This document shows, in pieces, positions 1,060 through 53,658 of a stretch of DNA of 64,000 nucleotides. Under the pieces are notes generated by a model. That model saw nothing but the letters and a program-made list of their open reading frames with translations. It was not told where the DNA came from and ran no database searches. The stretch lies in IMG/VR virus record IMGVR_UViG_2703718817_000003; one strand, 5' to 3'. Position 1 is the stretch's first letter. Every line of letters begins with the position of its first letter. Both the position numbers and the translations under genes were made by a program. Origin of the DNA: a virus. Taxonomy: Duplodnaviria; Heunggongvirae; Uroviricota; Caudoviricetes.

Positions 1060-4000
1060 TTGAGGGGGCTTCCTTTGGACAAAATAATTGATTCAATTAG
1101 CCAGGCCACCAGCATTGGGGCGCTGATTGAAATTGTTAGTCGGTTGCATAAACCGCGAGCTGTAGTGACCTTTGGCGTTAAGAAAGTCGATGGCGTCAGT
1201 ATTCAGAAAACACGCCGGGCAGCAAACAACGCCGCAGTAAATCTTCTTAATTCCCTTCCGCCTGGCTTCGATGGGGCGAAATTAACTGACGAACAGCGTC
1301 AGATTCTTGCCGGGTATACCGGTGAAGGCGGCCTGACAGATGGTGAGGGCAGCCAATACGAATACTATACGCCACAGTTTATGGCAGAAGGTATATGGGA
1401 TCTCTTCGGCGACTACGGTATTGATAGCGGTCACGTACTGGAACCGTCAGCAGGCACAGGTATTTTCCAGGAGACAAAACGGCAGGGCATGATAATGACC
1501 AGCGCCGAACTGTCTCCGATCTCCGGTCGAATAAACCAGCTTTTGCACCCGGAAGATGATGTGAATATCGGGGCGTTTGAGGCGCTGGCGGCGAAAGATG
1601 CAATGTATGACCACGCAGTTGGTAACGTACCGTTTGGCGAAGGGCGTTCCGGCGTCGCCGGGCTTGATCCGGCATATGCAAACGAGAAGAACGTTGGCAA
1701 TTATTTTGTGCTGCGCACGATCGACAAGGTTAAGCCTGGTGGACTAATTGTATTGGTGGTGCCGAATGGCATGACCGATGGTACGAAATACAAAAAATTG
1801 CGCGATAAAGTCAGCCGTAAAGCGGAATTTTTGGGCGCGCATCGTATGCCTTCTGGTACGTTCAGCGAATCCGGTACAGATACCGTGGTGGACGTATGGG
1901 TATTGCGTAAACACCCGGAAACCTTCCTGGAGATGATCCCCGACACGGATGATGCAACGCTCAAATCGGCAAACGTCCTTTGGGATACCTTCCTCAAAGG
2001 GAAATGGTTTACAACCGAAGGGAAGCGATTTGTTTACGGCGACATGGAACGCACCAGCTTCCGCAATACCCTGGTGGTGAAAAAGGACGGTCGTGTATCC
2101 AATGAGTCGATGAAAACCGCGTTATCACGCCGCTTTGAAAGCCGTATTAATTGGGATTTGCTCGGAGTAACTACCCAGGCATGGCAGGGCGCAAAAGTAG
2201 GGGATAAGCGTCTTGTAGGCGGTATCTGGCATGAGTTTGATGGCCTGAAATGGGTTAAGGACACGACAACCAAATCCTCCGCGCTTGATGTAAGTCGATA
2301 TGGTGTTTCGACGTTTGGCGATCTGCAGATCGCGTTCCAGTCAACAAACGGGATTCTGGCTTTGTCATGGGACCAGATATCGGCGATCGCGTCCGACTAT
2401 CCATCGGTTGTCAGTGATGAAGTGGCAGCAATGATTCGCTTTGCTGGCAAACAGCGAGAAAAAGACAGGGAGCGCGTTATGCGCGGTGCACTGATAGGTC
2501 AGTTGATCAACAAGGCACTTGATTTGCGTAACCTGGGGGTGAACGTTGATGACAAACTGGCAGATGCATCCCGCCTGGCGGCAGCAGAAGTTGCGAAGTA
2601 TGGACCACCGCACGCGATTAAGCTGAATGGGCTTGCAGAAGCTGGAGCTAAAAACTGGATGACGTTCACTGGCAATGTGAAACAGGATGGTTCCACTTCT
2701 GACCTTCTGGCAGGGCGACTTGATGTAACGGATGGTGCTGCCGGTATTGACTTTACACGTCCGGAACAAGTGATAGCACATCTTTTCAGTGATGTAGCCC
2801 TTTATCCTATAACGCTGGGCGACTTTCGTGAGGCGTTTGCTGGTGAACTGCCAGAGGACGACGACGCGGCCCTTGAATACCTGGCGAAATTTGATGATAT
2901 CGCTATTGATGGGTATGGCTGCCTGCTGCCGATGGACCGCGCCACCAGCGGCGATATTGCAACCAAAACAACATTGCTGGTGGGCTGGCGTGATGCGTCA
3001 ACAGGTGAACAGAAAGCGAACTTTGAGCGTCAGTTGGCGAAAATCGAAGAGAAACGCATTTTCACGCCACTAAATAAAGTCACCGTTAATCTGAACGCCC
3101 GCTGGCTGGATCGCCGCTTGATAAAAGAGTTCCTGGCAGAGCAGGGCTATGACGAGTTTAAGTACACTGAACCTGATCTGAAGGTCGTCGATGGCATTCT
3201 GGTATCTCCGGACGATTACGAAGGTAAGGACGGGGTATTTACCGGCTATCAGCTACGAACCGTAAACGGCAAAAACGGGAATGAGTTCAAGAAGGCCAAC
3301 AATAAAGACGGCTTCCTGAACCAGTTAGAAAACTACCTGAACGGTGTTAAACCGCGTGGGCAGAACGCTAACGAGTACCTGGATAAAATTGCTCAACTGG
3401 AAGTTAGCTTTAACGACTGGTTACGCACCCACCCGCAGGCGGATCAGATAGCCCGTGACTATAACGACGCATTCAATGGCTTCATTCCGTTCACGCACTC
3501 TAACGCACCGCTTGGCCTGGAAGGGATTAGTGGAAAGCGCATTCCTCTGACTTATCAGAATGAAGAAGTTCGTCGCTTGTCAGAAGATGGGCGCGGCATC
3601 ATGGGATTTGGTACCGGGCTGGGTAAAACCACGACCGCGCTTGCGCTTGAGGCGTATAACTTCGAAACAGGTCGTACTAAACGCACGTGTATTGTTGTTC
3701 CGAAGGCGGTTTATCAGAACTGGTATCACGAGGCACAGAGCTTCTACAGTGCTGATGCCTTCGCCAATATGATGTTTATCGGTCTGGATGAAGTTCGTGA
3801 TGAAGACGGCAATATTCTGACCGCGCCGGTGCTTGATGAAAATGGCGAACCCCGCCTCGACAGTAACGGGCAGCCTCTTACCAGAAATGTTGTGAAAGAG
3901 TCCGCCAGCGCCGTTATCGTTCAGCGCATGAACATGATCCCGTCGTCAAATTGGCGAACGGTCATCATGACAAAAGAACAATTCGCGTCTATCCCGCTAC

Positions 4001-12466: not shown

Positions 12467-12543
12467 GATGGTGTAGCTCAGTAGGATAGAGCAGCAGCCT
12501 TCTAAGCTGTCGGTCGGTGGTTCGAATCCACCCACCATCGCCA
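12467..12543 (+). tRNA. tRNA-Arg (anticodon UCU)
   Basis: Manual cloverleaf: acceptor GATGGTG/CACCATC, D-arm GCTC...GAGC, anticodon loop CTTCTAA, T-arm GGTGG-TTCGAAT-CCACC, encoded CCA. Confidence 0.8.
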
Positions 12544-12548
12544 ATTTA

Positions 12549-12635
12549 GGGGAGTTAGTCCGTAGGGGTAGCGGGGTAGACTGTAAATCTACTGTCATTG
12601 CGACTCGGATGGTTCGACTCCATCACTCCCCACCA
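12549..12635 (+). tRNA. tRNA-Tyr (anticodon GUA), class II with long variable arm; D-arm atypical
   Basis: Acceptor GGGGAGT/ACTCCCC, anticodon arm GTAGA-CTGTAAA-TCTAC, variable arm TGTCATTGCGACTCG, T-arm GATGG-TTCGACT-CCATC, CCA encoded. Confidence 0.6.
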
Positions 12636-12639
12636 AATT

Positions 12640-12715
12640 GCCGGTTTAGCTCAGTTGGTAGAGCAGTCGCTTTGTAAGCGAATGGTCAGCGGTTCGATCC
12701 CGTTAACCGGCACCA
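12640..12715 (+). tRNA. tRNA-Thr (anticodon UGU)
   Basis: Acceptor GCCGGTT/AACCGGC, D-arm GCTC-AGTTGGTA-GAGC, anticodon loop TTTGTAA, T-loop TTCGATC, CCA encoded. Confidence 0.85.
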
Positions 12716-12903
12716 ACACAACAGGTAAGGGTATTTTGCGACATCGGAGATCGCCGAGCTTGGCAGAGGGTTCGAATCCCTACGAAGTACCCTTGCCGTT
12801 GTGATGAATGCACAGGCTGATGTGCCGCAACTACAGTAGTGCGCGCTTTGCGGGGCTTGCTACAACCCTGTGTCGGAGTTCAGCACCGACCATCACAATC
12901 ACT

Positions 12904-12990
12904 GGAGAGTAGGGAGCATGGTGCTCAAGCGGTCTTGAAAACCGTCCCATTGCGCAAGCGATGATGGTTCGATTCCATTACTCTCCGCCA
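12904..12990 (+). tRNA. tRNA-Ser-like (anticodon UGA), class II; D-arm noncanonical
   Basis: Acceptor GGAGAGT/ACTCTCC plus GCCA; anticodon arm GCGGT-CTTGAAA-ACCGT; long variable region; T-arm GATGG-TTCGATT-CCATT. Confidence 0.55.
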
Positions 12991-13419
12991 GCGCAACGTT
13001 AAGAGTATTTGGCTAATTAAGCGAATGCCGGAAGCAGAACCGGATCACCAAATGCGTACAGGCGTCATCGCCGCCCAGTCAGCCAAATGCTCTTACCATT
13101 GCGGTGAATGCGGCTAAGCGCACGCGGAACAGTTAAAACAGTAAAGGTGGTCTTTTTACTGGCGTAACGAGCATCCATAAGTGATCCGGCGTTAATTGTT
13201 AACTGGTTAACGTCACCGGGAGGCACCCGGCACCGCAACCTAACAGCAATGGCGTTTTGTCTTAAAAGGTGGCTGCAAGTGATGGATTTTTGGGCGTTTG
13301 CCGATAAAAACCCGGAGTGGACATTATTGTTTCTGCTGGTGGTTGCATACGGGGTAGAGCAAGCGGCAAAAGCCTTACGCGGTTCTGGCAAAAAGCGTAA
13401 GCGTAATTAACAGTAATCT

Positions 13420-13495
13420 GGCCCTTTAGCTCAGTGGTTAGAGCGGGCGACTCATAATCGCACGGTCACCGGTTCAAGTCCGGTAGGGGCCACCA
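13420..13495 (+). tRNA. tRNA-Ile2-like (anticodon CAU, lysidine type) or tRNA-Met
   Basis: GGCCCTTTAGCTCAGTGGTTAGAGC...CTCATAA...GGTTCAAGTCCGG...AGGGGCCACCA; closely resembles enterobacterial ileX from memory. Confidence 0.75.
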
Positions 13496-13949: not shown

Positions 13950-14525
13950 ATGTTAACGGCGAACGATAACGCGTATTCAGAAGATGATCTCGTTTTGAGT
14001 GACTTTATAGGGCGACGAGAATGCTGGACGCAAAAGCGCGAGGAGCTTTATGCAGCGTTAGTTCGTAAAGGCGTCAACATCGAAACCGCACAGAACGGTG
14101 ATATGACAGTGGTAAGTGTTGGACTGCACGGCGTAAGCGTGTCAGCAATCAATCATGAGCCGTACATTGCGTTATCCGAGTCAATGGTAAGGTTAGTTAA
14201 GTTCCTGAAGTACACAGAAGCGAATAACGTGCTCATCGCCAAAAAGAACATCCCGTTCTCATCGGCCTTTTACTGGATGATGAAGGGGCTTGATGCCCGG
14301 CGAACATCATGGCCTAAAGGGAGCTATATATCGATGCTCCGTGGCAGTGTTGGCAGCAAAGAAAAGCTCGTCGAATTCCTGCCGGAAGAGGCATTCGATA
14401 TTGTTGAAGGTTGTGATGTGATGGTTATGCCTCGCCTGGTAATGATGAATGGGGATTTACAGGCACAGACAGACTGGTTTGCAACTGGTGTTGATATTAT
14501 CGCTACTGACTGGGAGGTTTTTTGA
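13950..14525 (+). CDS. hypothetical protein with C-terminal DUF2829-like domain
   Basis: 191 aa; C-terminal FSSAFYWMMKGLDARRTSWPKGSY...TDWFATGVDIIATDWEVF has the W...RR..W...DW-x-V pattern. Confidence 0.5.
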   Translation: MLTANDNAYSEDDLVLSDFIGRRECWTQKREELYAALVRKGVNIETAQNGDMTVVSVGLHGVSVSAINHEPYIALSESMVRLVKFLKYTEANNVLIAKKNIPFSSAFYWMMKGLDARRTSWPKGSYISMLRGSVGSKEKLVEFLPEEAFDIVEGCDVMVMPRLVMMNGDLQAQTDWFATGVDIIATDWEVF

Positions 14526-15012: not shown

Positions 15013-15405
15013 ATGGAGCAAATCAGTAGCGCCGAAATAGCGGATATCATGATCAGGGCTGACTGCTATCTGACGGTCACCGAAATCACCAGCCGTGCAA
15101 AAGCACAATATCCTCACCTTCATGTGTCGCGCGTAAACGTAAATAACATCATACGTTTTTTTGTTCGTTCCAGTCGTGCCATTTGCGAAATAGACGACCG
15201 CGTATACCCCCGGAAATATTGGTTACATGGCCTGAATGGATACCAGTTCAAGGTGCGCGGGCGCACTCCTGAATTCGGTCGGCTGTTGGTGAAAAACACC
15301 AACCGAAAGATAGAAGCTCAATTACGAAAGGAGCAGCGTCAGTTGGTGGCGATGACTAACCAGCTATGGAACGCCGCTGTGAAAAAACGTGAGGCTTCCC
15401 TATGA
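15013..15405 (+). CDS. hypothetical protein upstream of pacA (position of P1 lpa)
   Basis: 130 aa ORF overlapping pacA start by 4 nt; function inferred from position only. Confidence 0.4.
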   Translation: MEQISSAEIADIMIRADCYLTVTEITSRAKAQYPHLHVSRVNVNNIIRFFVRSSRAICEIDDRVYPRKYWLHGLNGYQFKVRGRTPEFGRLLVKNTNRKIEAQLRKEQRQLVAMTNQLWNAAVKKREASL

Positions 15406-16766
15406 CGTTAATTAACTGGGAAGCGCATCGAGCTAAGTTCCTGGAGTTAAGAGAAGAAACCGGGATCACCATAAAAGAATATTGCGAGCAGCATGACCTC
15501 AGCTTTAACACCGCCAGAAAGCATCTCAATATGAAAAAAAATGAGGTTAAGGCGAAAGCAAAGGCTGCCGGGAAAAGTACAAAACAGCGCGCAAAAAGCA
15601 GCGCCACCGGCTCAAAAAAAGAGCAAAAAAAGGCTGATAAAAGCACAGAATTTACAAAAACTGACAAATCGTTAGCTGGTGGACGGTTCCGCGCCATGCC
15701 GCAAAAACAAAATGCGGATCACAAAGAAAAGCCAAGTAATAACAACAAGATACACAAGGATGTGAAGGGATCATTTTGTGATGAAATGGGAGAAATGATC
15801 CCTAAAAGCAGCGAAAAAGCCCAACGAAACAAGGGATCATTGCAAATGATCCCTGACTCATCAGCTCAAAGCGCCACTTTGCCTGCCACCAACGTCGCCC
15901 GTGAGATGATGAAGAACGGCGCGACTGAACATTTACGACTTGCGATACAGATGGCGCAGGAACGAGCAATTCAGTATCAGGCCATCGTTGACCAGGAAGC
16001 GGAGCGACTACAGGAAGAGATTGACGCCCTCGGCGATACACAGCCAGAGGGGATGCACCCAGGGCAGCGTCTTCTCGGCCTAATAAGCGATGCGGCCTAC
16101 TACATGAATGACTTTATCAGTAGGTTGGCAGCCATCTACCAGACCGAGCAGAAGCTACGCCAGGGGGATGAAAAACTTGCGCAGGGCGCGCGTCAGCAGG
16201 CATTCAGGGAGGCTGAGGCCAGAGAAAAACTGGCGATTGCCCGCCTGCAGGCCGAGCAGCGTGGCAAGGAGATTGAGTATCGCATTGGCGCTGACGCACG
16301 CGCCGCCAGGGTTATCGCCGCCGCTATACGTATGCGTGAGCGCGAGGAGCTGGACGATATAGGCGTAGCTGAATATATCGAGCGGCAGGGCGTCAGTGTC
16401 CCAGCTATCCTGGCGGCACGAGCGGCAAAAGCGATCTCACTTCTGGAGCCTCCGGTTTCTGACGTTAACGATGTTGATGATGAGCAACTGGATAAAGAGG
16501 CGAAGCAGTTTGCCGAGCAACAAGCTGGACTACCACAATGGCTTGCACAACGCCGGGCTGAAGTAGCGAAAATCGTTGATAGGCTTGGGATGGGGGATTA
16601 CGACCGGAACGGAGAACGTAAAGCCGGTGAATTTGAGGCCAATGATGAAGACCTGAATATAGACCCTTCCGCCACGGCTGATATCTACGGTGATTATGAC
16701 GCGGGGGATACCGGTTTTGATGCTGTAGATGACGAGATTGTGATAGACCAGCCGGAGGATGACTAA
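15402..16766 (+). CDS. pacA: Terminase small subunit PacA-like
   Basis: 454 aa; N-terminal HTH-like segment; lysine-rich linker; acidic C-terminus; translationally coupled to the large subunit (TAATG); contains a GATC cluster. Confidence 0.65.
   Translation: MTLINWEAHRAKFLELREETGITIKEYCEQHDLSFNTARKHLNMKKNEVKAKAKAAGKSTKQRAKSSATGSKKEQKKADKSTEFTKTDKSLAGGRFRAMPQKQNADHKEKPSNNNKIHKDVKGSFCDEMGEMIPKSSEKAQRNKGSLQMIPDSSAQSATLPATNVAREMMKNGATEHLRLAIQMAQERAIQYQAIVDQEAERLQEEIDALGDTQPEGMHPGQRLLGLISDAAYYMNDFISRLAAIYQTEQKLRQGDEKLAQGARQQAFREAEAREKLAIARLQAEQRGKEIEYRIGADARAARVIAAAIRMREREELDDIGVAEYIERQGVSVPAILAARAAKAISLLEPPVSDVNDVDDEQLDKEAKQFAEQQAGLPQWLAQRRAEVAKIVDRLGMGDYDRNGERKAGEFEANDEDLNIDPSATADIYGDYDAGDTGFDAVDDEIVIDQPEDD
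15765..15855. other. Candidate pac site: four GATC-containing elements in alternating orientation inside pacA
   Basis: GGGATCATT (15769), AATGATCCC (15797), GGGATCATT (15835), AATGATCCC (15848) within about 85 bp; P1 pac is a cluster of Dam-methylatable hexamers inside pacA. Confidence 0.45.
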
Positions 16767-18274
16767 TGGCTGGTGGTCGTAAGATTAAGTGCGTCACCAG
16801 TGATCCACGTTGGCGCGATATGGTTATCAGGTATCGATACAACTTTACCCAGGCGGTTGTCGATATTTTTGGGATGTTCCCCTCCCATCAGCAGCAGCAG
16901 ATCATTCAGTCAGTGCAGGAGACGGGGAGCAGGACGACCGTTACGTCCGGACACGGAACGGGTAAGTCATCCCTTACCGCGATGTTGCTACTAATTTTTA
17001 TGATCCTGTTCCCCGACGCCCGCGTCATTATTGTTGCGAACAAAATAGGCCAGGTAAAAACAGGCGTATTCAAATACGTGAAACAGTTTTGGGCGAATGC
17101 TGTTAAGCGCCACGGCTGGTTACAGACCTATTTTGTCCTGTCTGACACCATGTTTTATGAGCGTTCCCGTAAAGGGATATGGGAAGTGCTCTGTAAAGGT
17201 TATCGACTCGGTAACGAAGAGGCACTGGCGGGGGAGCACGCGGAGCATTTACTGCTAATCCTTGATGAAGCATCGGGCATATCCGATAAGGCGATTAACG
17301 TCATGACGGGGGCGTTAACGCAGAAAGATAACCGTATGCTCATGCTTTCCCAGCCTACGCGTCCAAGCGGTTACTTTTATGAATCCCACCATTCAAGGGC
17401 AAAGGCAGAAGGCAATCCGGAAGGAGTCTGGACGGCAATAGTCCTTAACTCTGAAGAATCTCCATTCGTTGAACCGAGCTTTATTCGTGAGAAATTGCTG
17501 GAGTACGGCGGCAGGGATTCGCTGGAGTACATGGTTAAGGTGCTGGGCCAGTTCCCGCGTGCAATTAACGGGTATTTGCTTGGTCGTGATGAGTGCGACC
17601 GCGCCGCACGGCGTAAAGTGTTGCTGGAGAAAGATTGGGGCTGGGTAGCGACCGCTGACGTCGGTAATGGTCGCGACAAATCGGTGCTCAATATATGCAA
17701 AGTATCCGGTTATCGTGAGAAACGACGCGTTGTGAACTTTAAGATACTGGAGATGCCAGGCACTATGGACCCGTTGGCTTTTGCCGACTTTATCTATAAC
17801 GAATGCACTCCTGATAAATACCCGAACATCACCATTGCTGTGGATGCTGATGGCTTTGGTTCAGATACGTGTGCGCAGCTTGTCCGCCGTGGTGCTAATC
17901 CCGTTCGCATCCGTTGGGGTAAGCCTATGTTTGCGCTAAGAGACAGAGAACGCTTTGTCAATCAGCGTGCTTACGCCAATATTATGGCAGGGGATGCCAT
18001 TAAATCAGGGCGTATGCGTATCGATAGTGACCCCAAAACCGCAGATCAGGCATCAAAAATCCCGTATATGCTTAACGAAGAAGGGAAGGTAGCGATGATG
18101 CGCAAGGAGCACATGCGGCAGAAGTTAAACATCAAGTCGCCGGACAGATGGGATACCTACTGCTTCACTATGCTGGTGGATTACGTGCCTGCTAATGAAG
18201 ACATTGGCGCAGAACTCGCAACATTCCGCGATCAGGTGTTGGCAGAAGTGGATATTCCTGATATTGACATTTAA
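16766..18274 (+). CDS. pacB: Terminase large subunit PacB-like
   Basis: 502 aa; Walker A TSGHGTGKSS; acidic motif LLLILDEASGI; position after pacA. Confidence 0.8.
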   Translation: MAGGRKIKCVTSDPRWRDMVIRYRYNFTQAVVDIFGMFPSHQQQQIIQSVQETGSRTTVTSGHGTGKSSLTAMLLLIFMILFPDARVIIVANKIGQVKTGVFKYVKQFWANAVKRHGWLQTYFVLSDTMFYERSRKGIWEVLCKGYRLGNEEALAGEHAEHLLLILDEASGISDKAINVMTGALTQKDNRMLMLSQPTRPSGYFYESHHSRAKAEGNPEGVWTAIVLNSEESPFVEPSFIREKLLEYGGRDSLEYMVKVLGQFPRAINGYLLGRDECDRAARRKVLLEKDWGWVATADVGNGRDKSVLNICKVSGYREKRRVVNFKILEMPGTMDPLAFADFIYNECTPDKYPNITIAVDADGFGSDTCAQLVRRGANPVRIRWGKPMFALRDRERFVNQRAYANIMAGDAIKSGRMRIDSDPKTADQASKIPYMLNEEGKVAMMRKEHMRQKLNIKSPDRWDTYCFTMLVDYVPANEDIGAELATFRDQVLAEVDIPDIDI

Positions 18275-19378: not shown

Positions 19379-19545
19379 AAAAGTCCTGTGACAAATTTAT
19401 GCTGAATAACAAGGTGAGTAAAGGATAAAACCGCTTTTTTTTGATTGTTCCTATTAGAAAATGTAGCCAGGAACGGCTACCGCATGGCTGACGGATTTGC
19501 GAAGTGATCTGGTCGGTGTTTTTTTGGGAAAAAAGCCCCGATTCC

Positions 19546-19575
19546 AACTTTAAATAATTGGCATTATTTAAAGTT
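19546..19575. other. lox-like recombination site candidate (perfect 13-4-13 palindrome, readable as 11-8-11)
   Basis: AACTTTAAATAAT-TGGC-ATTATTTAAAGTT, 155 bp upstream of the Cre-like gene; arm AACTTTAAATA matches 8 of 11 positions of the loxP arm AACTTCGTATA. Confidence 0.4.
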
Positions 19576-19728
19576 AGGCTATAATCTCCAGTAAACAGGT
19601 AGTATTGACAAGGATGAAAAATCATGCCTCGAATCAAAGGCTTGAATTTTGAAAATTAACTTATAACTACCCTGTCAGTTTTCTATTTTTCATGTAGCGT
19701 TATCTGTATATAGAGGTTTAATAGTTTC

Positions 19729-20757
19729 ATGGGTGAACTAGTTATCTCCGGCGGTTCTGGTGGTTTTCTGCGCGATATTGGCACCGAATACCAGGAAGCT
19801 GCAAAAAACTTTATGCAGTTCATGAACGACCAGGGAGCTTATGCCCCAAATACGCTTCGAGATCTCCGTCTGGTGTTTCATTCCTGGGCGCGGTGGTGTA
19901 ACTCGCGCCAGCGCCCCTGGTTCCCGATTACGCCGGAAATGGCCCGCGAGTATCTTCTCCAGTTGCATGAGGCCGATCTGGCTTCGACCACCATTGATAA
20001 GCACTATGCCATGCTTAACATGCTGCTTTCGCAATGTGGCCTCCCGCCGCTCTCGGACGATAAAAGTGTGTCTCTGGCCATGCGGCGCATCCGGCGCGAA
20101 GCGGCAACGGAAAAAGGCGAGCGAACAGGCCAGGCTATACCGTTGCGGTGGGATGATCTGAAATTGCTCGACGTGTTGCTGTCCCGTTCCGAGCGGCTGG
20201 TGGACCTGCGCAATCGGGCGTTTCTCTTCGTGGCATACAATACCCTGATGCGTATGTCAGAAATCTCGCGCATCCGCGTCGGAGATCTGGAACAAACAGG
20301 TGACACTGTAACGCTGCATATTTCACACACGAAGACCATCACGACCGCCGCCGGACTTGATAAGGTGCTTTCTCGTTACACTACCGCCGTACTGAACGAC
20401 TGGCTGGAGGTGTCCGGACTTCGAGAACATCCGGACGCGGTGCTATTCCCGCCAATACACCGCAGTAATAAGGCCAGAATCACGACAACGCCCCTTACTG
20501 CACCTGCAATGGAGAAAATATTCAGCGATGCCTGGGGGTTGCTGAACAAACGAGATGCCACGCCGAACAAAGGAAGATACCGGACGTGGACAGGCCATAG
20601 TGCGCGTGTTGGTGCGGCAATTGATATGGCTGAGAAACAGGTGTCAATGGTCGAGATCATGCAGGAAGGCACATGGAAAAAGCCCGAAACACTTATGCGA
20701 TATTTGCGCCGTAGCGGGGCATCCGTTGGTGCAAATAGTCGCCTGATGGATTCATAA
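19729..20757 (+). CDS. cre: Cre-like tyrosine site-specific recombinase
   Basis: 342 aa; colinear with P1 Cre as recalled (WFP...E...REYLL, AYNTLMRMSEISRIRVGDL, GHSARVGAAIDMA, C-terminal catalytic region). Confidence 0.9.
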   Translation: MGELVISGGSGGFLRDIGTEYQEAAKNFMQFMNDQGAYAPNTLRDLRLVFHSWARWCNSRQRPWFPITPEMAREYLLQLHEADLASTTIDKHYAMLNMLLSQCGLPPLSDDKSVSLAMRRIRREAATEKGERTGQAIPLRWDDLKLLDVLLSRSERLVDLRNRAFLFVAYNTLMRMSEISRIRVGDLEQTGDTVTLHISHTKTITTAAGLDKVLSRYTTAVLNDWLEVSGLREHPDAVLFPPIHRSNKARITTTPLTAPAMEKIFSDAWGLLNKRDATPNKGRYRTWTGHSARVGAAIDMAEKQVSMVEIMQEGTWKKPETLMRYLRRSGASVGANSRLMDS

Positions 20758-40662: not shown

Positions 40663-40763
40663 TAAAACACACAGTTGCGCCCTGGCATTATCGTGGGGTA
40701 TATTTCTACGGCACCTTAGAAAAACGGGTGCCGGGATTGGAACCCCGGATAATGTCAAAGGCG

Positions 40764-40796
40764 ACACAGACGCCGAAAGCGTCTTTTTTTGTGTCA
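40764..40796 (+). terminator. Rho-independent terminator
   Basis: GACACAGACGC-CGAAA-GCGTCTTTTTTTGTGTC. Confidence 0.6.
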
Positions 40797-40975
40797 TGCC
40801 ATCGCGCAGCCATACGTAGCGTTTAGCTCAGAGATCAATGGTAGTGCTGGCTGGGCTGCCGAAAGGCAGGCCGGTTCCCTTTGACGCCGGTAGTTCCAAC
40901 CCAGTCAGTGCTACCGCCATTGAGATTGGAACCTCACGCGGTAGCTCCTTAACTTAGTCAAAGGAGGCTGCCAAT

Positions 40976-46986: not shown

Positions 46987-47187
46987 GTGTTTGCAAGGAC
47001 ATGAATAGTACACTATTATGATGGTGAAGGAATGGTACATGTTGAACCAAACCTTCGAGGATGCAGCAGACTGAAGAAATTCAGACATCCCGCAACCAGC
47101 TATCATAACAGGTCAAACCAGTTGTGATACTTGGTCAAGGCAAAGTCCGGTAATGGCGTTCTGAATACCAGAAAATAATTTCTGGCG

Positions 47188-47217
47188 AAGCCCACCTTAA
47201 GGTGGGCTTTGTTATTT
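47188..47217. terminator. Bidirectional Rho-independent terminator
   Basis: AAGCCCACC-TTAA-GGTGGGCTT with T-rich tracts on both sides, between convergent genes. Confidence 0.6.
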
Positions 47218-51178: not shown

Positions 51179-52084
51179 ATGAGATTAGTCGCCTTTAAAA
51201 ACATATACGTCTATCGCCTTGCCCGCGAAATTAAACTGGACTCAACCACCGTTAGTGATGCCTTAAGCCAATTCACATTCACTCCATGCGCATCACAAGA
51301 AATGGCAAAAGTCGGATGGGTGCCGGTTCTGGCTGACAACCTGATCCATGAATACCACGGTTTTCTACTTCTCCAGCAACAGCGAGAAATTAAGCTCCTG
51401 CCCTCTCATGTCATTAAGGAGGAAGTGCAGAAAAAAGTGGAAAAGCTCGAAAATGAGCAATCTCGTAAGCTGAAGAAGTCGGAAAAAAACACCCTGAAGG
51501 ATGAAGTTCTCCACTCTTTGTTGCCTCGCGCATTCACTCGCAAATCATTGTCGCGAATCCTTATTGATCGCGACAACTATCTGGTCTTCGTAGAAGCTTC
51601 CAGCGCCAGAAAAGCAGAAGAAATGCTGGCGCTCTTACGTAAATCACTTGGCAGCCTGCCAGTGATTCCATTCACGCCGATAGAACCGCTCGAAATGACT
51701 ATGACCGAATGGTTCAAGTCAACATTTCCTCAAGGCTTTAAAGCAGGCGAAGAAGCCATATTGAAATCGCTGTTCGATGACGGCGGCGCAGTTCGTTGCA
51801 AGAAAGTAGACCTACAGTCAGAGGAAATAATGACTCATATTGAAGCCGGAAAAGTTGCAACAACAGTTGCAATCAACTGGCAGGACCGCGCGACCTTCAG
51901 GTTAAACGATGATATGAGCATCAAAGCACTGACGTTTTGCGATGATCTCTATGACCAGAACGATGACATCGACCGTGAAGATGTTGCCCAGCGATTTGAT
52001 GCTGACTTCATTCTGTTCACAAGCGAATTATCCGCGATGTTTAGCTCGCTGGTGGAGGCCATTGGCGGTGAAGCAGAGCATTAA
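51179..52084 (+). CDS. rdgC: RdgC-like recombination-associated protein
   Basis: Colinear with E. coli RdgC as recalled (FKNIYVYRL, LKDEVLHSLLPRAF, LALLRKSLGSLPV, IEAGKV, DQNDDIDREDVAQRFDADFIL); ATG 51179 preferred over TTG 51170. Confidence 0.8.
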   Translation: MRLVAFKNIYVYRLAREIKLDSTTVSDALSQFTFTPCASQEMAKVGWVPVLADNLIHEYHGFLLLQQQREIKLLPSHVIKEEVQKKVEKLENEQSRKLKKSEKNTLKDEVLHSLLPRAFTRKSLSRILIDRDNYLVFVEASSARKAEEMLALLRKSLGSLPVIPFTPIEPLEMTMTEWFKSTFPQGFKAGEEAILKSLFDDGGAVRCKKVDLQSEEIMTHIEAGKVATTVAINWQDRATFRLNDDMSIKALTFCDDLYDQNDDIDREDVAQRFDADFILFTSELSAMFSSLVEAIGGEAEH

Positions 52085-52100
52085 TAACCGACCGCTGGCG

Positions 52101-52748
52101 GTGAGTCTTTGTGATTATACAGGGAATATGGTTTCCCCCTGGCTGGAACACGGCATTGATGCAGTCATTGTCGATCCGCAACACCAGGAGTCCGGCAGCC
52201 AATTGATGGAGTCAGGTGCTGTACTCACACGTATCAGCGCAATTATTGACAGTGATGAGGTCTACAATTTCCTTCGGAAAAATTTGCACAGAGTTGTATT
52301 TTTAGCCGGTTTCCCTCCATGTACTGACCTGGCTGTATCTGGCGCACGCTGGTTCGCAGATAAAGCGAAAAAAGATCCGGTTTTCCAGTTCAAAGCAATG
52401 CAGGTTGTCTGGCAGTGTTACGACATTGCAAAGATGATTGGTTGCCCGTACATGATTGAAAACCCGGTCAGCCAAATATCGACATTCTGGCGTAAACCTG
52501 ATCACATATTCCATCCTTATCACTTCACTGCATATTGCAAGGAAGACAATTACACCAAAAAAACATGCCTGTGGAGCGGACAAGGATTCATCATGCCAAC
52601 TCCGCGAATCGACGAGTCGTTAGGTGATCCAGACAACCGAATACACAAGGCACCGCCAGGACCTGAAAGAGCGAATTTTCGTAGCGCAACACCTTACGGT
52701 TTTGCAAGAGCTGTATTTGAAGCAAATAAGGAGGGAATCCGTGGCTGA
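52101..52748 (+). CDS. Short DNA (cytosine-5)-methyltransferase-like protein
   Basis: Motif IV-like GFPPC...SGA and motif VI-like YMIENPV; shorter than typical C5-MTases; GTG start inferred. Confidence 0.45.
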   Translation: MSLCDYTGNMVSPWLEHGIDAVIVDPQHQESGSQLMESGAVLTRISAIIDSDEVYNFLRKNLHRVVFLAGFPPCTDLAVSGARWFADKAKKDPVFQFKAMQVVWQCYDIAKMIGCPYMIENPVSQISTFWRKPDHIFHPYHFTAYCKEDNYTKKTCLWSGQGFIMPTPRIDESLGDPDNRIHKAPPGPERANFRSATPYGFARAVFEANKEGIRG

Positions 52749-52815
52749 TATTGGTGCTAAATTTATTTCTTATAGCGACAATCATCGTCCTGCGGCGGAA
52801 GCCACTATCAACCAT

Positions 52816-53658
52816 ATGCGACGTATTCGCTCGGAGGACGAATTTGATCGCCCCGTCTTTAAGTGGGTCGGCGGCAAATTTTCTGCACTGCCCATTATCT
52901 TCGAACACCTGCCCCACGGAAAACGGTTGATAGAACCTTTCGTTGGAGGTGGCGCTGTTTTCACTAATGCCGGATTTAAAAGCAACCTGCTGAACGATAT
53001 CAATAATGACCTGATTAACTTCTATCAGACATTGCAGCGTGAAGGGCATTCTCTTATCACACTGGCATATCGTTTTTTTCAGGATTACAACTCTGCTGAT
53101 GCATTTTTGAATGTTCGCAATGCATTCAACAATGGTGCTTATGATTCTCTTCACCATGCGGCGGCGTTCCTGTATCTCAATCGTCATTGTTTTAATGGCG
53201 TCACTCGCTATAACCGTAAAGGAGAGTTCAACGTCGGATATGGAAAGCAGAAATCTCCCTACTTCCCTCTCGCGGAAATGGAGGCGTTCCTGGATGACGA
53301 TATTTCAAAGTATTCGGAGTTTGTGTCCGGCGATTTTGCTGGTGTAATTGAGGCTGCCGGGAATGATGATGTGATTTTCTGCGATCCCCCCTATGAACCA
53401 TTGCCTGACACTACCGGATTTACAAATTACTCAGGGCATAGCTTTAGGTTTGAAGATCAACAACGGCTGGTGTCACTGCTGGTGGATGCCCACAGACGCG
53501 GAGCGAAAATTGTGATAACAAACAGTGGTGCGCCTAACATTCGCGAACTTTACGTTGGCAATGGCTTCAAGGTGTATCCTATGCCATCCCGTCGCTCTGT
53601 ATCCTGTAAAGCATCAACGCGAATGATAGCTAACGACATTATAGCCACGCTTAATTAA
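52816..53658 (+). CDS. dam: Dam-family DNA adenine (N6) methyltransferase
   Basis: FKWVGGK, EPFVGGGAV, NDINNDLINFY and catalytic DPPY; alternative in-frame GTG start at 52741. Confidence 0.8.
   Translation: MRRIRSEDEFDRPVFKWVGGKFSALPIIFEHLPHGKRLIEPFVGGGAVFTNAGFKSNLLNDINNDLINFYQTLQREGHSLITLAYRFFQDYNSADAFLNVRNAFNNGAYDSLHHAAAFLYLNRHCFNGVTRYNRKGEFNVGYGKQKSPYFPLAEMEAFLDDDISKYSEFVSGDFAGVIEAAGNDDVIFCDPPYEPLPDTTGFTNYSGHSFRFEDQQRLVSLLVDAHRRGAKIVITNSGAPNIRELYVGNGFKVYPMPSRRSVSCKASTRMIANDIIATLN

What the first reader, a model, noticed from the sequence alone, without database searches (positions are those of the whole stretch)
15765..15855. Candidate pac site: four GATC elements in palindromic arrangement inside pacA
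GGGATCATT / AATGATCCC / GGGATCATT / AATGATCCC within about 85 bp mirrors the organisation of the P1 pac site (Dam-methylatable repeats flanking the cleavage point inside pacA), but with a different repeat unit from the P1 hexamer as recalled. A Dam-like methyltransferase is also encoded, so methylation-controlled packaging is plausible.
Basis: partly seen in the sequence, partly recalled or inferred. Interest (0 to 1): 0.45.

Follow-up and report, generated by a model that had tools for sequence, protein, structure and literature searches.

The report
Likely packaging-site arm in D6-like pacA
The four GATC repeats are real, conserved at the DNA level and most likely part of the site where this P1/D6-type phage-plasmid starts DNA packaging, so this is a relative of the known P1 pac site with a different repeat and layout.

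Summary
GGGATCATT and its reverse complement AATGATCCC occur four times in the 64 kb window, all within 15767-15853. They lie inside a pacA homologue (74% aa identity to phage D6 PacA) in a D6-like phage-plasmid that also encodes a Dam-family methyltransferase.

This part of PacA is the least conserved at protein level. Even so, the GATC elements are invariant DNA islands across nine lineages, down to 43% aa identity. Gly/Arg swaps keep GATC, Ile is always ATC, and the same motif sits in other reading frames in Enterobacter relatives.

All PacA relatives examined have several GATCs in the same part of pacA, though the excess is weak in some. The P1 side uses TGATCA/G and the D6 side uses WGATCC(C).

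The pac reading is supported but needs refining:
- There is a fifth conserved element at 15716-15721.
- Non-E. coli relatives have two GATC arms around a conserved central island, as P1 does. In the window this island is at 15648-15668 and contains ACTGACAA, the reverse complement of the P1 cleavage sequence.
- The window's clade lacks the left arm, so the four repeats are probably the right arm (HEX3 equivalent), not flanks of the cut.
- No IHF consensus was found.

The function is inferred, not demonstrated.

The parts
15402..16766 (+). pacA (small pacase/terminase subunit, 454 aa). It hosts the candidate pac site in its hypervariable linker.
   Evidence: ORF. It is 74% aa identical to D6 PacA and 24% to P1 PacA. 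It matches phrog_1711 terminase at E = 1.9e-167 and shows 80.6% nt identity to D6 pacAB.
16766..18274 (+). pacB (large pacase/terminase subunit, 502 aa)
   Evidence: It matches phrog_2 terminase large subunit at E = 4e-41 and gives a weak Terminase_6N hit.
15648..15668 (.). Conserved central island GAATTTACAAAAACTGACAAA. TTACA and TGACA are invariant in 9 lineages. It is the candidate cleavage or host-factor region (inferred, low to moderate confidence).
   Evidence: The invariant runs TTACA (15652-56) and TGACA (15662-66) sit in an otherwise hypervariable linker. Five of six consecutive codons have invariant third positions although the amino acids change. The island lies between the left and right GATC arms in L088 and L097-L100. 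ACTGACAA is the reverse complement of P1 TTGTCAGT, which spans the annotated P1 cleavage points. No conserved antisense ORF and no promoter-like site explain it.
   Evidence: It is invariant in the four E. coli D6-type lineages and present in 29 of 30 distinct pacA sequences. It is absent from the non-E. coli lineages.
15739..15745 (.). ATAACAA box. AACA is invariant in 9 lineages. Role unknown.
   Evidence: The invariant run is at 15741-15744, and the Asn codon AAC has an invariant third position.
15765..15775 (.). el1: AAGGGATCATT. The GGATCA core is universal.
   Evidence: GGATCA is present in all 9 lineages. The Gly-to-Arg change (GGA to AGA) keeps GATC, and the Ser codon is TCA in 29 of 30 sequences.
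15793..15803 (.). el2: AAATGATCCCT. The GATCC core is universal.
   Evidence: GATCC is invariant in 9 lineages. The 10-nt run AAATGATCCC is invariant in 4 lineages and is among the longest invariant runs in the gene. The Ile codon is ATC in 29 of 30 sequences.
15831..15841 (.). el3: AAGGGATCATT, specific to the E. coli D6-type lineages
   Evidence: GGA or AGA followed by TCA or TCT keeps GATC. Other lineages carry extra elements at non-homologous positions.
15844..15854 (.). el4: AAATGATCCCT. The GATC core is universal.
   Evidence: GATC is invariant in 9 lineages. The run AATGATCCCTG is invariant for 11 nt in 4 lineages. The Ile codon is ATC in 30 of 30 sequences.
15462..15469 (.). GGGATCAC in the conserved N-terminal domain. 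It is a possible distal extra element (weak evidence).
   Evidence: The E. coli lineages that lack the left arm encode G-I-T as GGG ATC ACN, which matches the element consensus. L088 and L098 encode the same G-I-T as GGC ATT or GGC ATC, without GATC. This is one clade, so it counts as one evolutionary event.
52624..53658 (+). Dam-family N6-adenine DNA methyltransferase (the true start is probably downstream of 52624)
   Evidence: PF02086 at E = 7e-54. TIGR00571 dam at 231.7 bits against a cut-off of 114.85. GATC specificity is inferred from family membership and was not tested.
19545..19576 (.). rox-like recombination site about 3.7 kb downstream of the cluster (context: it mirrors the pac-lox arrangement in P1)
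   Evidence: It has one mismatch to the D6 rox site, and none of 100 shuffles produced a match. A Dre-like tyrosine recombinase lies at 19729-20757.

Best explanation
The window is a D6-like, P1-family phage-plasmid. The four repeats, together with a fifth GATC element at 15716-15721, are most likely the PacA/PacB (pacase) recognition elements of its pac site. They are embedded in the poorly conserved linker of pacA, exactly as in P1.

By homology with P1, the proposed mechanism runs as follows. Host Dam, the phage-encoded Dam-family enzyme, or both methylate the GATC cores. PacA (N-terminal HTH) together with PacB binds the array. Cutting happens only when the site is sufficiently methylated, and headful packaging then proceeds towards pacB-c1-rox.

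The element is WGATCC(C), which appears in the window as aAATGATCCC, rather than P1's TGATCA/G. The comparative data suggest that the cluster corresponds to the right arm (P1 HEX3 equivalent). They also suggest that the cut is made about 50-60 bp upstream of el0, near the conserved island at 15648-15668. The window's clade appears to have lost the left arm that its non-E. coli relatives retain.

Shown here: the presence of the elements, their DNA-level conservation, their position in pacA, their recurrence across the family, and the methyltransferase gene.

Inferred: binding, methylation control, cut position and packaging direction.
For: - Identity and context. pacAB is 80.6% nt identical to D6. 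The gene order lpa-pacA-pacB-c1-rox-dre matches D6 and P1.
- The motif is unique to this spot in 64 kb.
- Conserved islands. In the hypervariable linker, 27 of 30 hexamer positions are invariant in 4 lineages, against a 42% background. Only 5 of 100,000 random placements did as well.
- Longest runs. AAATGATCCC and AATGATCCCTG are among the longest invariant runs of the whole gene.
- The constraint is on nucleotides, not amino acids. GGA/AGA (Gly/Arg) swaps keep GATC. Ile is ATC at 59 of 60 sites, although ATT, ATC and ATA are used 46, 50 and 31 times in the gene. Ser is TCN at these sites wherever Ser is encoded.
- Other reading frames. Enterobacter relatives carry GGGATCATT as GGG GAT CAT T, in a different frame.
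- Synonymous sites across 9 lineages. Eleven of 72 degenerate codons inside 15630-15855 have invariant third positions, against 5 of 328 elsewhere (Fisher p = 6.6e-6). Amino-acid invariance is lower inside this span, 10.5% against 26%.
- Family pattern. P1, Pantoea, Acinetobacter, Leclercia, Citrobacter, Klebsiella and Enterobacter PacA relatives all have several GATC at pacA nt ~150-500. The excess over background is clear in P1, Enterobacter and Pantoea (Poisson P about 1e-5 to 7e-5) but not in Citrobacter, Leclercia or Acinetobacter (P 0.03-0.13).
- P1's functional pac site, with its annotated cleavage points, lies at the equivalent place in pacA (P1 pac properties from PMC10028697).
- A Dam-family methyltransferase is encoded in the window.
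- The two-arm layout with a central island in five relatives mirrors P1's HEX4-cleavage-HEX3 arrangement.
Against: - There is no experimental evidence for cleavage, binding or methylation dependence in any D6-like element that I could access. Neither D6 GenBank record annotates a pac site.
- The exact P1 hexamer, the 4+3 arrangement and the IHF consensus are absent.
- The window's clade has no left arm, so a P1-style two-armed complex cannot form as it does in P1.
- Two natural variants have each lost one GATC (L029, L032), so individual elements are dispensable, or those copies are decaying.
- The ACTGACAA match to the P1 cut site is in the opposite orientation. It was noticed post hoc, and by my rough arithmetic the chance of such a match is about 0.01-0.2, depending on how the search space is counted.
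- The lineages are phylogenetically related, so the conservation statistics overstate independence.
Confidence: 0.72

Rival explanations
1. The repeats reflect protein-level selection. On this view PacA carries a duplicated peptide motif (K-G-S-x...M-I-P) in its linker, and the DNA repeats are a by-product.
For: M-I-P is conserved twice in all lineages, and G/R-S recurs. The two halves look like a tandem duplication, with direct repeats D4 and D5.
Against: Gly/Arg replacements keep GATC. Ile is always ATC and Ser is always TCN at these sites. The Pro third position varies freely, yet the upstream A/AA is conserved. The same 9-mer is read in another frame (G-D-H) in the Enterobacter lineages. 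P1-side relatives have GATC clusters that encode quite different peptides. The synonymous-site excess has p = 6.6e-6 in the region of lowest amino-acid conservation.
Confidence: 0.05
2. The cluster is a Dam/SeqA-responsive element with a different role, not the pacase recognition site. Possible roles include sequestration of hemimethylated DNA, timing of pacB or antisense transcription, or a replication-linked function.
For: From general knowledge, GATC clusters also mark Dam-controlled origins and promoters. The P1 plasmid origin, for example, carries clustered GATC. The window's layout departs from P1's 4+3 arrangement and has no IHF consensus.
Against: No sigma-70-like promoter was found on either strand in 15300-16100. 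The position in pacA corresponds to the experimentally defined P1 pac site. The recurrence across the family tracks pacA, not replication genes. The conserved flanks (GATCCC) imply a specific reader other than SeqA or Dam, which need only GATC.
Confidence: 0.12
3. The inverted repeats act as a structure. This could be a hairpin in pacA mRNA or a cruciform/ssDNA hairpin, for example one that slows translation or terminates antisense transcripts.
For: The el3/el4 pair folds as a 10-bp stem (-9 kcal/mol, z = -4.6) and el1/el2 as an 11-bp stem (z = -3.9). A terminator-like pattern is seen on the minus strand.
Against: Arm changes are not compensated. GGG becomes GAG or AGA in the left arms while CCC stays in the right arms, and in D6 the stem shrinks to 7 bp with a 9-nt loop. 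In non-E. coli lineages el3 is absent and the el2-el4 spacing changes from 51 to 63 nt, so the pairing partners are not conserved. No Rfam family matches here.
Confidence: 0.05
4. The cluster is a chance product, or the residue of a recent local duplication, and has no function.
For: GATC count alone is only weakly significant (Poisson about 0.007 for the segment). One duplication of a palindromic unit would create all four copies at once.
Against: The elements are conserved across nine lineages down to 43% aa identity, in the most variable part of the gene.
Confidence: 0.02

Closest known systems
Bacteriophage P1 pac site (161-162 bp inside pacA; seven TGATCA/G hexamers as HEX4 + HEX3; central IHF site and cleavage points; cleavage controlled by Dam methylation)
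   Same: Both lie in the variable linker of the 5' third of pacA, upstream of pacB-c1 and a site-specific recombination site. Both have clustered repeats with a GATC (TGATC) core. Both genomes encode a Dam-family methyltransferase. More divergent D6-side relatives even show the two-arm layout with a conserved centre.
   Different: The repeat is WGATCC(C)/aAATGATCCC, which is asymmetric and occurs in both orientations, not TGATCA/G. The window has five elements spread over about 140 bp on one side only, rather than 4+3 flanking the cut. No IHF consensus is present. PacA is only 24% identical. The function is untested.
Escherichia phage D6 pacA region (MF356679 / AY753669)
   Same: The gene and the elements are orthologous. 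All five GATC elements and the island are present at the same codons.
   Different: The two are about 75% nt identical in pacA. The D6 left-facing elements are more degenerate (GAGATCATT and GGGATCTTC), so the perfect 9- to 11-nt palindromes are specific to the window's sub-lineage. No pac site is annotated in either D6 record.
pac sites of other headful phages that lie inside the small-terminase gene (e.g. P22, SPP1; from general knowledge)
   Same: In each case the cis-acting packaging signal is embedded in the coding sequence of the small terminase subunit.
   Different: As far as I know, those sites are not GATC arrays and are not methylation-controlled. Their terminase small subunits are unrelated in sequence. 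These comparisons were not tested here.

Membership tests
P1-type pac site | Located inside pacA, in the 5' third of the gene, next to pacB | tested here: met
   The elements lie at pacA nt 315-453, and the P1 hexamers at nt 194-381. Both fall in the poorly conserved linker after the N-terminal HTH.
P1-type pac site | Cluster of short repeats, each containing a Dam GATC site | tested here: met
   There are five GATC elements in 137 bp, all with a TGATC core on one strand, and they are conserved as DNA.
P1-type pac site | Repeat unit is the hexamer TGATCA/G | tested here: not met
   All five are TGATCC/GGATCA with the consensus aAATGATCCC. D6-side relatives use (G)GGGATC/GATCCC(C).
P1-type pac site | Two arms (4 + 3 repeats) flanking a central cleavage region | tested here: not met
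   The window, D6, L087 and L089 have no upstream arm. The feature is met in the relatives L088 and L097-L100, which have left and right arms around the conserved island.
P1-type pac site | IHF-binding site in the centre | tested here: not met
   A scan for WATCAANNNNTTR with at most 1 mismatch recovers the annotated P1 site but finds nothing in the window, D6, L088 or L089 pac regions. A degenerate or different host-factor site cannot be excluded.
P1-type pac site | Cognate PacA/PacB pacase encoded | tested here: met
P1-type pac site | Dam methylation available (host or phage Dam-family enzyme) | tested here: met
   A Dam-family methyltransferase lies at 52624-53658. Close relatives are plasmids of Escherichia, Salmonella and Shigella, which have Dam by general knowledge.
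P1-type pac site | Cut by pacase in vivo and in vitro, with cleavage dependent on the methylation state | not testable with these tools
   This needs virion-end mapping and cleavage assays in dam+ and dam- backgrounds.
P1-type pac site | A few kb upstream of the lox-type site, so that the first headful carries it in the terminal redundancy | tested here: inconclusive
   A rox-like site lies 3.7 kb downstream with the Dre-like gene next to it. The direction of packaging cannot be determined from sequence.

The most novel reading that the evidence does not exclude
The D6-type pac site may be a rewired version of the P1 site. Recognition would have shifted from the palindromic TGATCA to an asymmetric GATCCC-type element. 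In the E. coli D6 clade, the upstream arm would have been lost and replaced by extra downstream elements (el0, el3, and possibly GGGATCAC at 15462). This would give a one-sided, methylation-sensing array that directs cutting at a conserved ACTGACAA-containing island about 50 bp away. If so, P1 and D6 pacases would be orthogonal, and the turnover of pac arms within one gene would be a tractable case of co-evolution between a terminase and its site.
Probability: 0.3. Interest if true: 0.55.

Novelty: new variant of a known kind. Interest (0 to 1): 0.4.

Why it matters
P1's pac site is the textbook example of methylation-controlled packaging and underlies P1 phagemids and transduction tools. D6-like phage-plasmids are common in E. 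coli and Salmonella (121 PLSDB plasmids matched), yet no pac site is annotated in the D6 records or described in the literature I could search.

A defined D6-type pac site, with a distinct repeat and probably a different architecture, would have three uses:
- It would allow the design of packaging-specific D6 phagemids that may be orthogonal to P1.
- It would explain which host DNA these elements can transduce, through pseudo-pac sites containing GATCCC arrays.
- It would give a natural series (two-armed versus one-armed sites, TGATCA versus GATCCC) for studying how a small terminase and its site co-evolve while the site sits inside the terminase gene itself.

Tried and rejected
- IHF consensus scan. 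Nothing was found at up to 1 mismatch in the window, D6, L088 or L089, although the scan recovers the P1 site.
- Promoter scan of 15300-16100. No sigma-70-like sites were found. The one terminator-like hit, on the minus strand, is just the el3/el4 palindrome.
- Rfam at gathering thresholds. No family matches in pacA.
- Antisense ORF 15356-15697 as an explanation for the island's synonymous conservation. The ORF is interrupted by stops in L087, L089 and L088, so this was rejected.
- Hairpin or cruciform as the selected feature. The stems are not maintained by compensation, and the pairing partners change between lineages.
- P1-like loci from IMG/VR as a positive control for the conservation method. 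All are at least 94% identical to P1, so they were uninformative.
- Genome-contig scan. It returned only two P1-like loci.
- Phage-collection tblastn. It returned only D6.
- Literature. The D6 genome paper (PMC5800970 / PMID 29304472), the P1 genome paper (PMC523184) and the 1990 PNAS methylation paper (PMC54894) are not held. Full-text searches for a D6 pac description found none.
- GATC count alone as evidence. It is weak, with Poisson P about 0.007, so I relied on motif identity and conservation instead.
Full report
**What is there**

GGGATCATT is at 15767-15775 and 15833-15841. AATGATCCC is at 15794-15802 and 15845-15853. The repeats extend to 11 nt (AAGGGATCATT twice, AAATGATCCCT twice) and form perfect inverted arms. 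These four are the only exact occurrences of the 9-mer on either strand in the 64 kb window. This is the densest GATC cluster in the window. GATC count alone is only modestly unusual: five GATC fall where 1.2 are expected, giving Poisson P about 0.007. The case therefore rests on motif identity and conservation. A fifth GATC element, GGATCA at 15716-15721, belongs to the same set.

**Context**

The ORF at 15402-16766 is pacA and the ORF at 16766-18274 is pacB. Together they are 80.6% nt identical to Escherichia phage D6. PacA is 74% aa identical to D6 PacA and 24% to P1 PacA, and it matches phrog_1711 'terminase'.

- Upstream is lpa (PF25716).
- Downstream are a c1-like ORF, a rox-like site at 19545-19576 with one mismatch to D6 rox, and a Dre-like recombinase.
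- The closest relatives are roughly 90-kb non-mobilizable plasmids of E. coli and E. marmotae, at 98% identity.
- A Dam-family methyltransferase is encoded at 52624-53658.

The window is therefore a D6-like, P1-family phage-plasmid.

**Selection acts on the DNA, not the protein**

I built a codon alignment of 30 distinct D6-like pacA genes from IMG/VR, PLSDB and GenBank. The interval 15550-15880 is the most variable part of the gene, yet the GATC elements stand out as invariant islands.

- In four lineages, 27 of 30 hexamer positions are invariant, against 42% of the other linker positions. Only 5 of 100,000 random placements of five hexamers did as well.
- AAATGATCCC and AATGATCCCTG are among the longest invariant runs of the whole gene.
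- The constraint is on nucleotides. Gly/Arg replacements (GGA/AGA) keep GATC. The Ile codon is ATC at 59 of 60 sites, although ATT, ATC and ATA are used 46, 50 and 31 times in the gene. Ser is TCN at these sites wherever Ser is encoded, while the third base of the following Pro codon varies freely.
- In the Enterobacter plasmids L088 and L091 the same GGGATCATT motif is read in a different frame (GGG GAT CAT T) at non-homologous positions.

I then added more divergent lineages found by protein search (57-43% aa identity in the alignment). In this nine-lineage alignment, only 16 of 400 degenerate codons have an invariant third position. Eleven of those 16 lie inside 15630-15855, which gives 11 of 72 inside against 5 of 328 outside (Fisher p = 6.6e-6). 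Amino-acid invariance is lower in this span than elsewhere, 10.5% against 26%. This is the signature of a cis-acting DNA element embedded in a weakly constrained coding linker.

The lineages are related, so these statistics overstate independence. Even so, the pattern is consistent across at least six well-separated branches.

**A feature of the whole family**

All PacA relatives I could retrieve have several GATC sites at pacA nt ~150-500.

- P1 has eight.
- A Pantoea plasmid has nine, seven of them at a 12-nt period.
- Acinetobacter, Leclercia and Citrobacter plasmids, Klebsiella and Enterobacter elements, and two metagenomic lineages at 34-35% identity also carry them.

The excess over the local background is clear in P1, Enterobacter and Pantoea (Poisson P about 1e-5 to 7e-5). 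It is weak in Citrobacter, Leclercia and Acinetobacter (P 0.03-0.13).

The flanks split the family into two groups. The P1 side uses TGATCA/G. The D6 side uses (G)GGGATC / GATCCC(C), and the window's version is aAATGATCCC.

In P1 this region is the experimentally defined pac site. It is 161 bp long, with seven TGATCA/G hexamers (HEX4 and HEX3), a central IHF site and cleavage points, and its cleavage depends on Dam methylation (PMC10028697). The cleavage points and IHF site are annotated in NC_005856.

**Architecture**

The nine-lineage alignment shows three universally conserved right-hand elements. In window coordinates these are el1 GGATCA at 15768, el2 GATCC at 15797 and el4 GATC at 15848. 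Elements el0 (15716) and el3 (15834) occur only in the four E. coli D6-type lineages.

The five non-E. coli lineages (L088, L097-L100) also have a left arm of two or three GGGGATC/GATCCCC elements at pacA nt 157-237. Their sites are therefore two-armed, like P1's.

Midway between the arms lies a conserved island, which in the window reads GAATTTACAAAAACTGACAAA (15648-15668).

- TTACA and TGACA are invariant in all nine lineages.
- Five of six consecutive codons keep their third base while the amino acids change.
- No conserved antisense ORF and no promoter-like site explain this.
- ACTGACAA is the reverse complement of TTGTCAGT, the sequence that spans the annotated P1 cleavage points at P1 pacA nt 275-282.
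- The island is within a few codons of that position in the PacA alignment.
- It lies 48 bp upstream of el0. In P1 the cut region lies 41 bp upstream of the first HEX3 hexamer.

The orientation of the ACTGACAA match is inverted and I noticed it post hoc, so I treat it as a lead only.

The window's clade has no left arm. Instead it has the two extra right-hand elements. It also encodes a conserved G-I-T as GGG ATC ACN (15462-15469, matching the element consensus), where L088 and L098 use GGC ATT or GGC ATC for the same residues. That difference is a single clade-level event and is weak evidence.

**Most likely mechanism**

The GATC elements are probably the pacase recognition array of a P1-type pac site sensitive to Dam methylation, and they correspond to P1's HEX3 arm. 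The cut is more likely near 15650-15680 than inside the four-repeat cluster. Packaging would then run towards pacB-c1-rox, so that rox falls in the terminal redundancy. This last point is by analogy with pac and lox in P1, from general knowledge.

Shown here: the elements, their DNA-level conservation, their position, their recurrence across the family, and the methyltransferase gene.

Inferred: PacA/PacB binding, methylation control, cut position and direction.

I put confidence that the cluster is part of pac at about 0.7, and confidence in the specific right-arm and upstream-cut architecture at about 0.4.

**Rivals**

- A protein-level repeat is contradicted by the codon evidence above.
- A structural hairpin is contradicted by uncompensated arm changes and by pairing partners that change between lineages.
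- A different Dam/SeqA-linked role cannot be excluded. It is disfavoured by the positional homology to P1 pac, by the conserved non-GATC flanks, and by the absence of promoter-like sites.
- Chance is excluded by the conservation.

**Differences from P1**

The hexamer is TGATCC rather than TGATCA/G. The window has no 4+3 two-arm layout. No IHF consensus is present with up to 1 mismatch, although the same scan recovers P1's site. For these reasons I do not file it as a canonical P1 pac site. I file it as a variant of that kind.

**Novelty and limits**

Neither D6 GenBank record annotates a pac site, and full-text searches found no description of one. I could not read the D6 genome paper, so a prior description cannot be excluded. 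The finding is a reasonable, useful and testable annotation. It is not a surprise to a P1 specialist. The motif switch and the apparent loss and replacement of one pac arm are the more interesting parts.

Noticed in passing
window 15648-15668: The island GAATTTACAAAAACTGACAAA lies in the hypervariable PacA linker. TTACA and TGACA are invariant in nine lineages, and third codon positions are conserved while the amino acids change. It contains the reverse complement of the sequence at the P1 pac cleavage points and lies between the two GATC arms in non-E. coli relatives.
   Followed up: partly
window 15462-15469: GGGATCAC encodes a conserved G-I-T. Only the four E. coli lineages that lack the left pac arm use GGG ATC here. 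L088 and L098 encode the same residues as GGC ATT or GGC ATC, without GATC. It may be a displaced extra element or a coincidence.
   Followed up: partly
window 15739-15745: ATAACAA box between el0 and el1. AACA and the synonymous third base of the Asn codon are invariant in nine lineages. Its role is unknown.
   Followed up: no
L088 1940-2265 (Enterobacter hormaechei p60214CZ_1); L097-L100: More divergent D6-side relatives carry 5-8 GATC elements in two arms (pacA nt ~157-237 and ~370-500), with (G)GGGATC/GATCCC(C) flanks. L101 and L102 (34-35% identity) have five elements at nt 184-268 plus one at nt 369.
   Followed up: yes
L029 and L032 (IMG/VR D6-like UViGs), el1 and el2 positions: Each has a single GATC-to-GACC change in one element. 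These may be tolerated losses, decay in plasmid-only copies, or sequencing errors.
   Followed up: no
window 13950-14525: The ORF upstream of lpa has a Tad2-like (Thoeris anti-defence 2) domain at E = 4e-10. Its orthologues in related plasmids are annotated 'MW1434 family type I TA system toxin'.
   Followed up: no
window 51942-53658: The Dam-family ORF (52624-53658) matches only the C-terminal third of the 779-aa phrog_116 methyltransferase profile. It overlaps an upstream 268-aa ORF (51942-52748) that has no Pfam hit. This could be a split or frameshifted Dmt-like gene.
   Followed up: no
window 12467-13492; 40711-40921; 47025-47210: Rfam hits: four tRNA hits, the C4 antisense RNA (the immunity RNA of P1/P7-type phages), isrK and sroH.
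   Followed up: no
window 19545-19576 and 19729-20757: A rox-like site (CAACTTTAAATAATTGGCATTATTTAAAGTTA) with one mismatch to D6 rox, next to a Dre-like tyrosine recombinase.
   Followed up: partly
window 2320-2505: A secondary GATC cluster, with four sites in about 200 bp and two only 10 bp apart. It was not examined.
   Followed up: no
L086 (Salmonella pSa1423-90k, NZ_MK356557.1) 1491-2860: The pacA homologue is riddled with frameshifts, with 18 in-frame stops. It is either a low-quality assembly or a pseudogene. I excluded it from the alignments.
   Followed up: no
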